Source of the DNA: a virus
Lineage: Duplodnaviria > Heunggongvirae > Uroviricota > Caudoviricetes
Virus record (IMG/VR): IMGVR_UViG_2617270954_000006
Length of the DNA: 6,705 nt
Strand: one strand, 5' to 3'
Shown here: one piece after another, positions 1-1,684 of the stretch
How the letters are laid out: each line of letters begins with the position of its first letter
Position numbering within the stretch: position 1 is the first letter of the stretch
Position numbers and translations under genes: made by a program
The notes under the pieces: generated by a model
The model's database searches: none
Told to the model about the DNA's origin: nothing
The model's input: the letters and a program-made list of their open reading frames with translations, nothing else

Positions 1-1684
1 CCCTAATGAGGCCGGACAACCGCAGATGGAAGTGATGATGCGGGATCAACTGCAGAAAGCCTCTGCGGTGCTGGCGGTGATGGATTACACCCAGATGAAC
101 TCAAAAGCGGATGAAGACGTCCGTAAAGAGCTTAATGCCATTGCTGACGTATCAGCCGGCCGCCTGTTTGTGCTGGTCAATAAATTTGATGAGAAAGACC
201 GCAATGGCGATGGGGCAGATGCCGTACGCCAGAAAGTTCCGGCAATGCTGAACAGTGATGTGCTGCCCGCCTCCCGCGTTTATCCAGGCTCATCACGTCA
301 GGCATACCTGGCTAACCGTGCGCTTCATGAGTTACGAAAAAACGGTGAGCTTCCTGTTGATGAAGCCTGGGTCGATGATTTTGTCAGGGAAGCTTTCGGT
401 CGCATGAAAAAAGAATACGTCTGTAAAGACAGCGAACTGGCAACTGAAGGGGCGACAGACCTGTGGGAAGGCTCCCTGATCGACCAACTGATAACGGAAG
501 TCATACAGAGTTCACATTCCAGAGCCGCGGCACTGGCGGTTGATTCTGCTGCCGCAAAACTGATGCAGAATGCGGAAAATGTCAGTGAATATCTGTCATT
601 ACGCCATCAGGGGCTGCAGCAAAGCATTCAGTCACTGCAGGCGCATATCTCCAGCCTGCTGGCGGATATCCGGGAAATAGCAGACTGTCAGGAGCAGGTG
701 ACCGCTGATGTCAGAATGGCCATGGAGGACATCAATACCAAAACCGGGGAATTACTGACGGGGGTCTGCACCTCACTGGAAGAGGAGCTGAATGACTATT
801 TCAGAAACGGTAAACGCAAAGAACAGCAAATGCTGGAGGAAGAAGACGCAGAACAACGAAGGTCTCAGTCCGGATTATGGGGAAAGATTTCTCAATGGTC
901 CGGTATCAACAACCAGGGCTGGGAGGATTACAGGAAACGAGATTTTGACCCGGACAGCCCCGAAATAAAATTCAGTGATCGCAGGGAAGCTCTTGAACTG
1001 ATGACGCAAATCGAATCGACCGTGACCAGCCTGCACCGTGAGGCTGAAGCACAGTTCCGGCCTGAGCTGGAAAAAATCGTCAAAGGTATTGAAACTGGTT
1101 TTCGTGGTACGGCCCTGTATGCCGCAGAAAAGATTGCCGGACGTATCAATGCCCGCCTGGAGGATGAGGGCTTTACCGTAAAAATCACTTTCCCGGTAGT
1201 CAGCCAGTTACAGACCCGGCTCGCGATGAAAACCAACTTAAGCACTCTTCTGGAAGAACGACCAGAGAAGATCACACGCCATCGTCGGCAGAGTGGTCTC
1301 TGGGGAAAAGTTTGTGGGTGGTTGGGCACCAGTGACTGGGGCTGGGAAGAATATGTTGATATCGTGCATCGCAGCGTGATCAATATGAACACGGTCAGAG
1401 AGGAAGTGATGTCTCTGACCCGGGCATATTTCGGGGAACTGCAGACATCCATTGAGCAGAATATTAACCAGCCCGTCCGCCAGGAAATCGATGCCTTTTT
1501 CTGCGCATTCAGGGAGAAAGTTGAACAGCTACGTAACACGCTGATTCAGAGCTCTGAAGATCATAAACGCGATCAGCAGGCGCAGGAACGGCTTACCGGG
1601 CGTCTTCAGGCATTAAATGAAAGGGTTCCCGAGTTGATTACTGACAGTAAGGCGTTAAAGGAAGAACTGGAGACACTGCTGTGA
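1..1684 (+). CDS. Dynamin-like GTPase (bacterial dynamin-like protein, CrfC/LeoA-like), 5'-partial; the window shows the end of the G domain plus a long helical stalk
   Basis: The reading frame is open from base 2 to the TGA at 1682-1684, so the gene starts upstream of the window. A G4-type motif hhhhNKxD (FVLVNKFD, nt 179-190) sits near the visible N-terminus, implying G1-G3 lie upstream. It is followed by about 500 aa of charged, helix- and coiled-coil-rich sequence typical of dynamin stalk/neck regions. An internal duplicated Trp-rich motif is present. Codon usage and GC (about 52-55%) are coherent across the ORF. Confidence 0.7.
   Translation, partial: PNEAGQPQMEVMMRDQLQKASAVLAVMDYTQMNSKADEDVRKELNAIADVSAGRLFVLVNKFDEKDRNGDGADAVRQKVPAMLNSDVLPASRVYPGSSRQAYLANRALHELRKNGELPVDEAWVDDFVREAFGRMKKEYVCKDSELATEGATDLWEGSLIDQLITEVIQSSHSRAAALAVDSAAAKLMQNAENVSEYLSLRHQGLQQSIQSLQAHISSLLADIREIADCQEQVTADVRMAMEDINTKTGELLTGVCTSLEEELNDYFRNGKRKEQQMLEEEDAEQRRSQSGLWGKISQWSGINNQGWEDYRKRDFDPDSPEIKFSDRREALELMTQIESTVTSLHREAEAQFRPELEKIVKGIETGFRGTALYAAEKIAGRINARLEDEGFTVKITFPVVSQLQTRLAMKTNLSTLLEERPEKITRHRRQSGLWGKVCGWLGTSDWGWEEYVDIVHRSVINMNTVREEVMSLTRAYFGELQTSIEQNINQPVRQEIDAFFCAFREKVEQLRNTLIQSSEDHKRDQQAQERLTGRLQALNERVPELITDSKALKEELETLL
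857..931 (+). repeat. Intragenic protein-level repeat, copy 1 (RRSQSGLWGKISQWSGINNQGWEDY) within the dynamin-like ORF
   Basis: Direct translation of frame 2: R-R-S-Q-S-G-L-W-G-K-I-S-Q-W-S-G-I-N-N-Q-G-W-E-D-Y. It shares the pattern R-x-Q-S-G-L-W-G-K-[IV]-x-x-W-x-G-x(3-4)-G-W-E-[DE]-Y with the copy at 1283-1354. Confidence 0.6.
1283..1354 (+). repeat. Intragenic protein-level repeat, copy 2 (RRQSGLWGKVCGWLGTSDWGWEEY) within the dynamin-like ORF
   Basis: Same frame, about 425 nt downstream of copy 1. The nucleotide-level similarity is also visible (cagtccggattatggggaaag vs cagagtggtctctggggaaaag). Confidence 0.6.

What the first reader, a model, noticed from the sequence alone, without database searches (positions are those of the whole stretch)
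857..1354. Duplicated Trp-rich motif (QSGLWGK…W.G…GWE[DE]Y) inside the dynamin stalk
Two copies of an unusual aromatic motif, about 140 aa apart, are each followed by a helical segment, which suggests an internal module duplication. Clustered Trp/Gly residues on a dynamin-like protein are what one would expect of a membrane-inserting paddle or lipid-binding loop. A tandem pair could let a single polypeptide bind two membrane surfaces, for tethering or fusion. The repeat is also visible at the nucleotide level, so it is not a translation artefact.
Basis: seen in the sequence. Interest (0 to 1): 0.55.

Follow-up and report, generated by a model that had tools for sequence, protein, structure and literature searches.

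The report
Trp-rich tip loops of a dynamin-like GTPase
The two tryptophan-rich motifs are real: the second is the conserved signature of the whole RdcA/CrfC-type bacterial dynamin family and sits where other bacterial dynamins carry their membrane "paddle", while the first is an extra copy found only in Escherichia, so together they most likely form one membrane-docking tip for a dynamin that works with a phospholipase.

Summary
Two 22-aa Trp/Gly motifs lie 141 aa apart (window nt 866-931 and 1289-1354; aa 527-548 and 668-689 of a 798-aa protein). They share 13/22 residues (z = 14.6 vs shuffles) and hold 7 of the protein's 10 Trp.

The protein is a BDLP/mitofusin-class dynamin-like GTPase, 33% identical to E. 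coli RdcA/CrfC. It is the first gene of a translationally coupled cassette (dynamin, RdcB/YjcZ-like, patatin phospholipase) on a CP4-type island. The cassette recurs across Proteobacteria, often in defence islands.

The copies are not equivalent. Copy 2 is a family-wide signature (W684-G685-W686 in about all species representatives). W672 and C676 are specific to the patatin-linked clade. Copy 1 occurs only in Escherichia alleles. Elsewhere its site is a variable loop with a basic run and a hydrophobic/aromatic patch.

Among E. coli alleles the two motifs are the most variable parts of the protein. DNA similarity between them is weak (64%), so there was no recent duplication.

Best reading: one bipartite, interfacial membrane-docking tip (paddle equivalent). 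Two-membrane tethering is not supported. Membrane binding is inferred, not shown, and AF2 confidence in both loops is low to moderate.

The parts
2..1684 (+). C-terminal 560 codons of a 798-aa dynamin-like GTPase (WP_000544703.1). The gene starts 713 nt upstream of the window.
626..868 (+). 81-residue stalk helix (aa 447-527) leading to copy 1
   Evidence: AF2 models, DSSP H209-289 of the window fragment, pLDDT 85-93
857..931 (+). Copy 1: RRS + QSGLWGKISQWSGINNQGWEDY (aa 524-548). Escherichia-specific Trp-rich loop at the turn of the first stalk hairpin.
   Evidence: AF2 pLDDT 42-51, tiny helix only. Second most interface-prone segment. Absent outside Escherichia. Cassette DNA present in 1451/5426 E. 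coli genomes.
962..973 (+). Short beta-strand (IKFS, aa 559-562) inside the family-conserved DFDPxxPxIKF element that follows the copy-1 loop
   Evidence: DSSP E321-324. Consensus DFDPxxPxIKF.
980..1162 (+). Return helix of the first stalk hairpin (aa 565-625)
   Evidence: AF2 H327-387
1253..1288 (+). Beta-strand leading into copy 2 (aa 656-667), ending in the near-invariant RR
   Evidence: DSSP E418-429. R666 and R667 at >=90%.
1289..1354 (+). Copy 2: QSGLWGKVCGWLGTSDWGWEEY (aa 668-689). Family-wide signature made of a short helix LWGKVCGWL, a GTSD turn, and WGWEEY entering a strand.
   Evidence: Near-invariant G670 W672 G673 C676 F679 D683 W684 G685 W686 E687 Y689. Clade table. Most interface-prone segment of the protein. 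AF2 pLDDT 62-67.
1343..1384 (+). Beta-strand returning from copy 2 (aa 686-699), running straight into the GED-like helix
   Evidence: DSSP E448-461
1385..1564 (+). 60-residue GED-like helix (aa 700-759)
   Evidence: AF2 H462-521, pLDDT 77-91
1681..2586 (+). RdcB/YjcZ-like partner gene. Its GTG start overlaps the dynamin stop (GTGA).
   Evidence: PF13990 E = 7.8e-70. 31% identity to K-12 RdcB. Overlap read.
2583..3653 (+). Patatin-like phospholipase. Its ATG overlaps the upstream stop (ATGA). GGGAVG, GASIG and DGG motifs are present.
   Evidence: PF01734 E = 3.1e-27. Motifs. Gene conserved downstream of the dynamin in 35 species representatives.

Best explanation
The motifs are two loops at the membrane-distal tip of the stalk of a BDLP/mitofusin-class dynamin-like GTPase. 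This protein is a paralogue of RdcA/CrfC and is co-translated with an RdcB-like protein and a patatin-like phospholipase.

Copy 2 (aa 668-689) is the ancestral element. It is a strand / short Trp-Gly helix / strand 'finger', preceded by an invariant Arg-Arg. It is inserted between the middle-domain helices and the GED-like helices, the position of the hydrophobic paddle of BDLP and LeoA and of the TM anchor of mitofusins. Copy 1 (aa 527-548) occupies the turn of the neighbouring helical hairpin. In the rest of the family this site carries a Lys/Arg run followed by a Gly/aromatic hydrophobic patch of no fixed sequence. In Escherichia the patch has taken a form that mimics copy 2.

Most likely the two loops together form one bipartite interfacial anchor. 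The basic residues would contact lipid head groups and the Trp/Phe side chains would sit in the interface. This would dock the GTPase on the cytoplasmic face of the inner membrane, where the lipase acts.

Shown: the motifs, their conservation pattern, their position in the predicted secondary structure, the dynamin fold, the operon and its neighbours. Inferred: that both loops lie at the same tip, that they bind membrane, and that docking controls the lipase.

For: (2) Copy 2 conservation in one-per-species genomes. Patatin-linked clade (n = 35): W672 33, G673 33, C676 31, F679 31, D683 33, W684 34, G685 35, W686 30, E687 33, Y689 33, R666 32, R667 31. RdcA-type clade (n = 40): W678 40, L679 40, W684 40, G685 39, W686 39.

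(3) Copy-1 site across 121 family members: a basic run followed by patches such as GFLAIFSSFL, FGGILGGFF, SIFGWIAAAF. In 80/121 a 9-mer has Wimley-White interfacial free energy below -2 kcal/mol.

(4) In the window protein the two motifs rank first and second for interfacial propensity at window sizes 9, 13 and 19. In the O157 allele the replacement cassette FAFFHDIFG still ranks second.

(5) No TM helix in the dynamin, the RdcB-like protein or the patatin, so any membrane contact must be peripheral.

(6) Topology from AF2: long helix, copy-1 loop, strand, long helix, extended low-confidence segment, strand, copy 2, strand, long helix. The strands that precede the two helices running back to the neck are the only strands in the C-terminal half.

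(7) Precedents. The DynA paddle is K360/K367 plus F363-365, and an F-to-W variant still binds liposomes (PMC12998192). The LeoA/BDLP paddle is hydrophobic, Gly-rich and lies between the middle domain and the GED (PMC4159319). [quoted passage not shown]

(8) The partner is a lipid-hydrolysing enzyme with intact GxSxG and DGG motifs, linked by overlapping stop/start codons. The three-gene order is conserved from Erwinia to Pseudomonas, Gallionella, Cupriavidus and a Spirochaetales MAG.
Against: No membrane-binding data exist for this protein or for the motif. AF2 confidence is low in copy 1 (pLDDT 42-51) and only moderate in copy 2 (62-67). I had no coordinates, so solvent exposure and the distance between the loops were not measured.

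The near-invariance of copy 2 (W, G, C, D, E, Y at fixed spacing) is more typical of a folded mini-domain or a specific binding site than of a generic membrane-inserting loop. The copy-1 site behaves like such a generic loop. Hydrophobic moments are unremarkable. The Wimley-White ranking follows almost automatically from Trp content. K-12 RdcA, the one relative known to reach the membrane, has a degraded motif (RWLNQPDWGRGN).
Confidence: 0.55

Rival explanations
1. The two loops are a recognition surface, not primarily a lipid anchor. In a defence-type cassette they would bind a phage-derived trigger, or be the target of phage inhibitors, with conserved Trp/Gly scaffold residues presenting variable residues. 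This is compatible with some membrane contact.
For: Among 122 Escherichia/Shigella allele clusters the two most variable 20-aa windows of the whole protein are aa 674-693 (entropy 0.62) and aa 528-547 (0.56), against a mean of 0.12. Nucleotide identity between alleles falls to 54-80% exactly at aa 511-570 and 631-720, against 92-100% elsewhere. In those segments dN is 0.14-0.33 and dS 0.5-0.7, against 0.02-0.05 and 0.1-0.27. The cassette sits next to type I R-M, Mrr, GmrSD, SIR2, ZorA, NERD helicase and WYL/BrxR genes. Of 142 flanking ORFs from 32 loci, 10 are WYL regulators, and JukA/B, mad2/3, PDC-S01/08/17/24 and SoFic also occur.
Against: dN/dS stays below 1 (about 0.3-0.45), and dS is raised too. 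The pattern therefore fits recombination between old alleles as well as it fits positive selection. No trigger is known. PADLOC 2.0.0 has no model for this cassette, so a defence role is itself untested.
Confidence: 0.25
2. Copy 2 is a structural mini-domain or an oligomerisation/partner interface (stalk-stalk contacts, or contact with the RdcB-like or patatin protein). The Trp residues would be buried on assembly. Copy 1 would be a fortuitous look-alike in a disordered linker.
For: Strict conservation of W, G, C, D, E and Y at fixed spacing. Predicted strand-helix-strand fold. The W672/C676 to R/A switch tracks presence or absence of the patatin gene, as expected if these residues contact the lipase. 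The RdcA C-terminal domain mediates homodimerisation and DgcE binding (PMC13463826).
Against: The published RdcA-RdcB model places RdcB on the N- and C-terminal helices, not on this loop (PMC13463826). Copy 1 matches an independent family HMM at E = 2e-9, so it is not a chance look-alike. The copy-1 site keeps a hydrophobic patch family-wide, which a passive linker would not.
Confidence: 0.15
3. One reading: a tandem pair of paddles lets one polypeptide hold two membranes for tethering or fusion.
For: Two interface-prone loops exist in one chain. Fusion-type DLPs do tether membranes (PMC6104087).
Against: Copy 1 is missing in every non-Escherichia homologue but one weak case and in many E. coli alleles. 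The element order puts both loops at the same stalk end. In known DLPs, tethering in trans is achieved by GTPase-domain dimerisation between molecules, not by two paddles in one stalk (established knowledge; PMC6104087).
Confidence: 0.04
4. QSGLW is a beta-clamp-binding motif, like QADMF or QLxLF, as expected for a CrfC relative.
For: It has the Q-x-x-L-aromatic spacing, and the family's founding member binds the clamp (PMC6374313).
Against: The CrfC clamp motif is N-terminal (41-QLALP). The window protein has ENRLL at that place. Position 668 is Q in only 10/35 patatin-clade species. No Q[LA]x[LM][FPL] match exists anywhere in the protein.
Confidence: 0.01

Closest known systems
E. coli RdcA/CrfC (YjdA) with RdcB (YjcZ)
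   Same: Same architecture and gene pair: a dynamin-like GTPase followed by an overlapping YjcZ-family gene. 33% and 31% identity. The second half of copy 2 (RWLNxxDWGWExY) is conserved in RdcA orthologues of 40 enterobacterial species.
   Different: No patatin gene follows RdcA-RdcB. RdcA-type proteins have R/K instead of W672 and A/S/V instead of C676, and lack copy 1. The window protein lacks the 41-QLALP clamp motif. It scores 278 bits against an equivalog cutoff of 1146 (only the C-terminal 560 aa were scanned). It lies on a mobile island, not at the phn-proP locus.
Hydrophobic paddle of BDLP (Nostoc), LeoA and B. subtilis DynA
   Same: A hydrophobic, Gly-rich element flanked by basic residues at the stalk tip between the middle domain and the GED. 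The same position is inferred for copy 2, and the same chemistry is seen at the copy-1 site (PMC4159319, PMC12998192).
   Different: Here the element is Trp-based, strictly conserved in sequence, and predicted as a beta-hairpin with a short helix rather than helical. No sequence similarity to BDLP extends beyond the GTPase region. Lipid binding is untested.
Eleos (LeoA/LeoBC 'Dynamins') anti-phage system
   Same: Dynamin-like GTPases found in defence islands (bioRxiv 10.1101/2022.05.11.491447). There is a weak PADLOC LeoBC hit (23 bits).
   Different: Eleos is an operon of two consecutive DLPs. This cassette has one DLP plus an RdcB-like protein and a phospholipase. The similarity to Leo models is marginal.
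Patatin effectors of CBASS (CapV)
   Same: A patatin-fold lipase with GGGxxG and GxSxG motifs as the probable membrane-damaging output.
   Different: 22 bits against an NCBIfam cutoff of 200. There is no cyclase or nucleotide-signalling gene in the cassette. The upstream partner is a GTPase.

Membership tests
Dynamin superfamily, BDLP/mitofusin (fusion-type DLP) class | Large GTPase domain with G1-G4 motifs | tested here: met
   GTMKAGKS, DTPG and NKFD in the full-length gene. Pfam Dynamin_N PF00350 on all close homologues. Only G4 lies inside the window.
Dynamin superfamily, BDLP/mitofusin (fusion-type DLP) class | Dynamin-like fold: GTPase domain plus helical neck and trunk | tested here: met
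Dynamin superfamily, BDLP/mitofusin (fusion-type DLP) class | Membrane-binding element (paddle or TM) at the trunk tip between the middle domain and the GED | tested here: inconclusive
   Copy 2 lies at that position in the order of elements and is the most interface-prone segment. Confidence is moderate, no coordinates were available, and there are no binding data.
Dynamin superfamily, BDLP/mitofusin (fusion-type DLP) class | GTP-dependent self-assembly and membrane remodelling | not testable with these tools
   Needs biochemistry.
RdcA/CrfC equivalog (NCBIfam NF007368) | Score above the curated cutoff (1146 bits) | tested here: not met
   278.5 bits for the 560-aa window part. 33% identity over 745 aa to K-12 RdcA.
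RdcA/CrfC equivalog (NCBIfam NF007368) | Downstream overlapping RdcB/YjcZ partner | tested here: met
   PF13990 E = 7.8e-70. GTGA overlap.
RdcA/CrfC equivalog (NCBIfam NF007368) | N-terminal beta-clamp-binding motif 41-QLALP (PMC6374313) | tested here: not met
   The aligned position reads ENRLL, and there is no clamp-like pentapeptide in the protein.
RdcA/CrfC equivalog (NCBIfam NF007368) | Activation of diguanylate cyclase DgcE | not testable with these tools
   No DgcE-like gene in the cassette. The third gene is a patatin lipase instead.
Eleos (LeoA/LeoBC) defence system | Two consecutive dynamin-like genes matching the LeoA and LeoBC models | tested here: not met
   Only a marginal LeoBC hit (E = 8.9e-6, 23 bits), and there is a single DLP in the cassette.
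CBASS patatin effector (CapV) | NF041079 above cutoff (200 bits) with an adjacent CD-NTase | tested here: not met
   22.1 bits. No cyclase in the window or in L001.

The most novel reading that the evidence does not exclude
The dynamin / RdcB-like / patatin cassette is an undescribed, widespread anti-phage (abortive-infection-type) system. It is present in about 45% of complete E. coli genomes. In this reading a GTP-state-sensing dynamin uses the conserved Trp finger to dock on the inner membrane and release a phospholipase. The two Trp loops are the hypervariable surfaces of an arms race. The same finger would explain the unexplained membrane recruitment of the housekeeping relative RdcA.
Probability: 0.3. 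Interest if true: 0.75.

Novelty: new variant of a known kind. Interest (0 to 1): 0.5.

Why it matters
Both papers on RdcA/CrfC that I read state that the protein lacks a known membrane-binding element. The 2026 study says its DgcE-independent membrane recruitment 'remains to be unraveled' (PMC13463826, PMC6374313). The conserved RR..WG..C.WF.T.DWGWE.Y finger, sitting at the paddle position, is a concrete and mutable candidate for that element.

A clean clade switch (W672/C676 with patatin, R/A without) gives a built-in comparison. The finding also flags a conserved three-gene dynamin-lipase cassette that is not in PADLOC 2.0.0 (no model matched strongly). The cassette sits in defence islands, is carried by about 2,460 of 5,426 complete E. 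coli genomes, and concentrates its allelic diversity in exactly these two loops.

Tried and rejected
- **Recent intragenic duplication or gene conversion.** Rejected. Copy 1 and copy 2 are 57-64% identical at the nucleotide level for all allele pairs, with different Ser/Leu codon families, and the DNA repeat tool does not pair them.
- **Diversity-generating retroelement or template repeat as the cause of hypervariability.** No repeat of either motif DNA elsewhere in the window, and no reverse transcriptase.
- **Ancient duplication of a loop-strand-helix module.** Tested with hhalign. The alignment is in register but not significant (E = 0.002-0.013, probability 3-13%). Left open.
- **Classic amphipathic helix.** Hydrophobic moments are below the protein average.
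- **Beta-clamp motif.** Rejected (PMC6374313).
- **Antisense ORF 928-1539 (203 aa) under the motifs.** A mechanical ORF only. The sense frame is supported by hundreds of homologues. It was not pursued.
- **Sequence search of solved structures for the stalk.** Only the GTPase region matches BDLP.
- **First homologue search.** It returned only relatives at 90% identity or more. Diversity came from the representative search and from a profile search with E. coli rows excluded.
- **3D distance and burial of the motifs.** Model coordinates are not exposed by the tools, so spatial claims rest on element order.
- **Literature searches for dynamin + patatin + YjcZ or anti-phage.** No description of the cassette was found. 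One genome survey merely lists the genes (PMC13182975).
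Full report
**What is in the window**

The first ORF (frame 2, nt 2-1684, + strand) is open at the left edge. It is the C-terminal 560 residues of a 798-aa protein annotated 'dynamin family protein' (WP_000544703.1). The window is identical to E. coli NCCP15648 and 13 other genomes.

- The next gene (1681-2586) is a YjcZ/RdcB-family protein (PF13990, E = 7.8e-70).
- The third gene (2583-3653) is a patatin-like phospholipase (PF01734, E = 3.1e-27) with GGGAVG, GASIG and DGG motifs.
- The three genes overlap by GTGA and ATGA, which suggests translational coupling.
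- The cassette lies in a CP4-44-like island. Upstream are a YeeP-type GTPase and, in other strains, Ag43/Cah. Downstream are DUF932, an antirestriction gene, RadC, CbeA/CbtA and tRNA-Ser.

**The observation**

- QSGLWGKISQWSGINNQGWEDY lies at nt 866-931 (aa 527-548). QSGLWGKVCGWLGTSDWGWEEY lies at nt 1289-1354 (aa 668-689). Both follow basic residues and they are 141 aa apart.
- They share 13/22 residues. The local alignment has z = 14.6 against 1000 shuffles.
- An HMM of copy 2 built without any Escherichia sequence finds copy 1 at 23.5 bits, E = 2e-9.
- Seven of the ten Trp of the protein are in these 44 residues.
- The DNA similarity is weak: 64% over 66 nt, with different synonymous codons. 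The DNA repeat finder does not pair the copies. This is a protein-level repeat, not a recent nucleotide duplication.
- Similarity beyond the motif is marginal: z = 2.6 for the flanks, and hhalign E = 0.002-0.013 at 3-13% probability, in register.

**What the protein is**

- The full-length sequence has the G1, G3 and G4 motifs.
- It is 33% identical to K-12 RdcA/CrfC, and its neighbour is 31% identical to RdcB.
- It is not an RdcA equivalog. It scores 278 bits against a cutoff of 1146 and lacks the 41-QLALP clamp motif (PMC6374313).

**The two copies are not equivalent**

I compared 111 representatives of 50%-identity clusters, 114 further homologues, and 80 loci from one-genome-per-species collections.

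*Copy 2 is a signature of the whole family.*

| Position | Patatin-linked clade (n = 35) | RdcA-type clade, no patatin (n = 40) |
|---|---|---|
| R666 / R667 | 32 / 31 | 18 / 23 |
| 672 | W 33 | R 35, K 5 (never W) |
| G673 | 33 | 23 |
| 676 | C 31 | A, S or V |
| 678 | W 20 (otherwise L or F) | W 40 |
| 679 | F 31 | L 40 |
| W684 | 34 | 40 |
| G685 | 35 | 39 |
| W686 | 30 | 39 |
| E687 | 33 | 31 |
| Y689 | 33 | 31 |

K-12 RdcA itself has a degraded version, RWLNQPDWGRGN.

*Copy 1 is restricted to Escherichia.*

- It occurs only in E. coli and E. albertii alleles. Among 225 other homologues, a single one gives a weak second hit of 6.3 bits.
- Elsewhere the site is a 31-78-aa variable loop between the conserved YFKEGKRxE and DFDPxxPxIKF elements. 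It nearly always carries a Lys/Arg run followed by a Gly/aromatic hydrophobic patch, such as GFLAIFSSFL, FGGILGGFF or SIFGWIAAAF.
- 80 of 121 sequences have a 9-mer with Wimley-White interfacial energy below -2 kcal/mol.

**Variation inside E. coli**

- About 2,463 of 5,426 complete genomes carry the gene. 1,451 carry a copy-1-type cassette at 90% nucleotide identity or more.
- Other alleles replace it with NAFAFFHDIFGTGNQHD or QQGIIGKIREQFSVSAPGHHSW.
- In a very common copy-1-type allele (P0003 and the O104:H4 allele), the third Trp is Arg.
- Over 122 allele clusters, the two most variable 20-aa windows of the protein are aa 674-693 and aa 528-547, with entropy 0.62 and 0.56 against a mean of 0.12.
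- Between alleles, nucleotide identity falls to 54-80% at aa 511-570 and 631-720, against 92-100% elsewhere. Both dN and dS are raised there.
- The gene is therefore a mosaic of old allelic cassettes at exactly these two loops. The conserved W, G, C, D, E and Y positions of copy 2 are kept.

**Predicted structure**

Both models, the full-length allele and the window fragment, give the same order of elements:

1. An 81-residue helix (aa 447-527).
2. The copy-1 loop (pLDDT 42-51, with only a 4-residue helix).
3. A short strand (aa 559-562).
4. A 62-residue helix (aa 565-626).
5. An extended low-confidence segment (aa 627-655).
6. A strand (aa 656-667).
7. A short helix, LWGKVCGWL (aa 671-679), and the GTSD turn. 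This is copy 2, at pLDDT 62-67.
8. A strand (aa 686-699).
9. A 60-residue helix (aa 700-759), followed by the C-terminal helices.

- The strand after copy 1 and the strand after copy 2 each run straight into a helix that must return towards the neck. They are also the only strands in the C-terminal half.
- I therefore infer that the two loops lie at the same distal tip.

Copy 2 sits between the middle-domain helices and the GED-like helices. That is the paddle position in BDLP and LeoA (PMC4159319).

**Mechanism**

The best-supported reading is a single bipartite interfacial anchor at the stalk tip.

- The two motifs are the first and second most interface-prone segments of the protein at all window sizes.
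- The O157 replacement cassette keeps second rank at window sizes 9 and 13.
- None of the three cassette proteins has a TM helix.
- The output enzyme acts on membrane lipids.
- In DynA, a Lys-flanked Phe triplet at the stalk tip is the membrane-binding site and tolerates F-to-W substitution (PMC12998192).
- RdcA relocates to the membrane at low GTP, independently of DgcE, by an unknown element (PMC13463826).

Against this reading:

- The sequence invariance of copy 2 would also suit a folded mini-domain or a partner interface.
- The W672/C676 to R/A switch that tracks the patatin gene could mean contact with the lipase.
- Hydrophobic moments are ordinary.
- Nothing has been measured experimentally.

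The tethering idea (two paddles for two membranes) is not supported. Copy 1 is dispensable in nearly all homologues, and both loops appear to share one tip.

**Context and the wider reading**

- The three-gene order (dynamin, YjcZ, patatin) is conserved in Erwinia, Pantoea, Pseudomonas, Gallionella, Psychrobacter, Paraburkholderia, Cupriavidus, Vogesella, Methylomonas, Allochromatium and a Spirochaetales MAG.
- Its neighbours include type I R-M, Mrr, GmrSD, SIR2, ZorA, a NERD helicase and BrxR-type WYL regulators.
- Of 142 flanking ORFs from 32 loci, 10 are WYL proteins. JukA/B, mad2/3, several PDC candidates, SoFic and integrases also occur.
- PADLOC 2.0.0 has no model that matches the cassette strongly.
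- The known dynamin defence system is a two-DLP Leo-type operon (bioRxiv 10.1101/2022.05.11.491447).
- I found no paper describing this cassette.
- A defence role with the two hypervariable loops as an arms-race surface is therefore a live possibility, but untested. The neighbourhood sample is small and no enrichment statistic was computed.

**Verdict**

The main new points are:

- Copy 2 is the conserved hallmark of the RdcA/CrfC-type dynamin family, sitting at the paddle position.
- A clade-specific W/C to R/A switch tracks the patatin partner.
- Copy 1 is an Escherichia-specific mimic in a loop that is hydrophobic family-wide.

I rate it a new variant of a known kind, of moderate interest. 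It makes the open question of RdcA membrane recruitment directly testable.

Noticed in passing
window 2-3653 (L001 8288-12653): Three translationally coupled genes (dynamin-like GTPase, RdcB/YjcZ-like, patatin phospholipase; GTGA and ATGA overlaps) form a cassette conserved across Proteobacteria. It often lies beside WYL regulators, R-M, SIR2, Zorya, Juk and MADS genes. No PADLOC model matches it strongly, and no paper found describes it.
   Followed up: partly
window 1301-1303 and 1313-1315 (aa W672, C676): Clade switch. Species with the patatin gene have W672 (33/35) and C676 (31/35). RdcA-type species without it have R/K (40/40) and A/S/V. W678, W684, G685 and W686 are shared by both clades.
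   Followed up: yes
window 818-997 and 1178-1447 (aa 511-570, 631-720): Among E. coli alleles these two segments are mosaic cassettes. Nucleotide identity is 54-80% against 92-100% elsewhere, and both dN and dS are raised. They hold the two highest-entropy windows of the protein.
   Followed up: partly
window 3756-3776, 4990-5010, 5141-5161: A 21-nt direct repeat (TTTATTTAATTTTGGAGAGAA, 76% in the other copies). The first copy lies just upstream of the small ORF at 3767 and the third lies upstream of the small ORF at 5175. This may be a shared 5' leader or RBS region of small, apparently signal-peptide-bearing island proteins with no family match.
   Followed up: no
window 5613-5693: A 40-nt imperfect inverted repeat (73% complementary, 1-nt spacer) directly after the 137-aa ORF. 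It overlaps the start of a DUF905 gene annotated as frameshifted in the matching genome.
   Followed up: no
window 4366-4905: A GYF_2/DUF4339 protein (179 aa) whose C-terminal half looks hydrophobic by eye (not computed). It is present in only some versions of the island.
   Followed up: no
window 928-1539, minus strand: A 203-aa antisense ORF lies under both motifs. No evidence that it is a gene. The sense frame is supported by hundreds of homologues.
   Followed up: no
L001 7198-8070 (upstream of the window): A YeeP-type 'GTPase family protein' heads the island and gives weak PADLOC hits to LeoBC and LeoA (E = 2e-8 and 2e-4). It is not part of the cassette in other genera.
   Followed up: no
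proteins P0126, P0271, P0272 (metagenomic): Homologues of about 1,200 aa carry an extra P-loop NTPase domain (PF13401). In P0126 the part matching the window protein is C-terminal (aa 619-1158), so the extra region is N-terminal there.
   Followed up: no
hit H15, E. coli strain 3R: An IS21-family element (istA/istB) interrupts the cassette region in one genome. P0002, from a contig of the same length as this chromosome, is an 820-aa variant.
   Followed up: no
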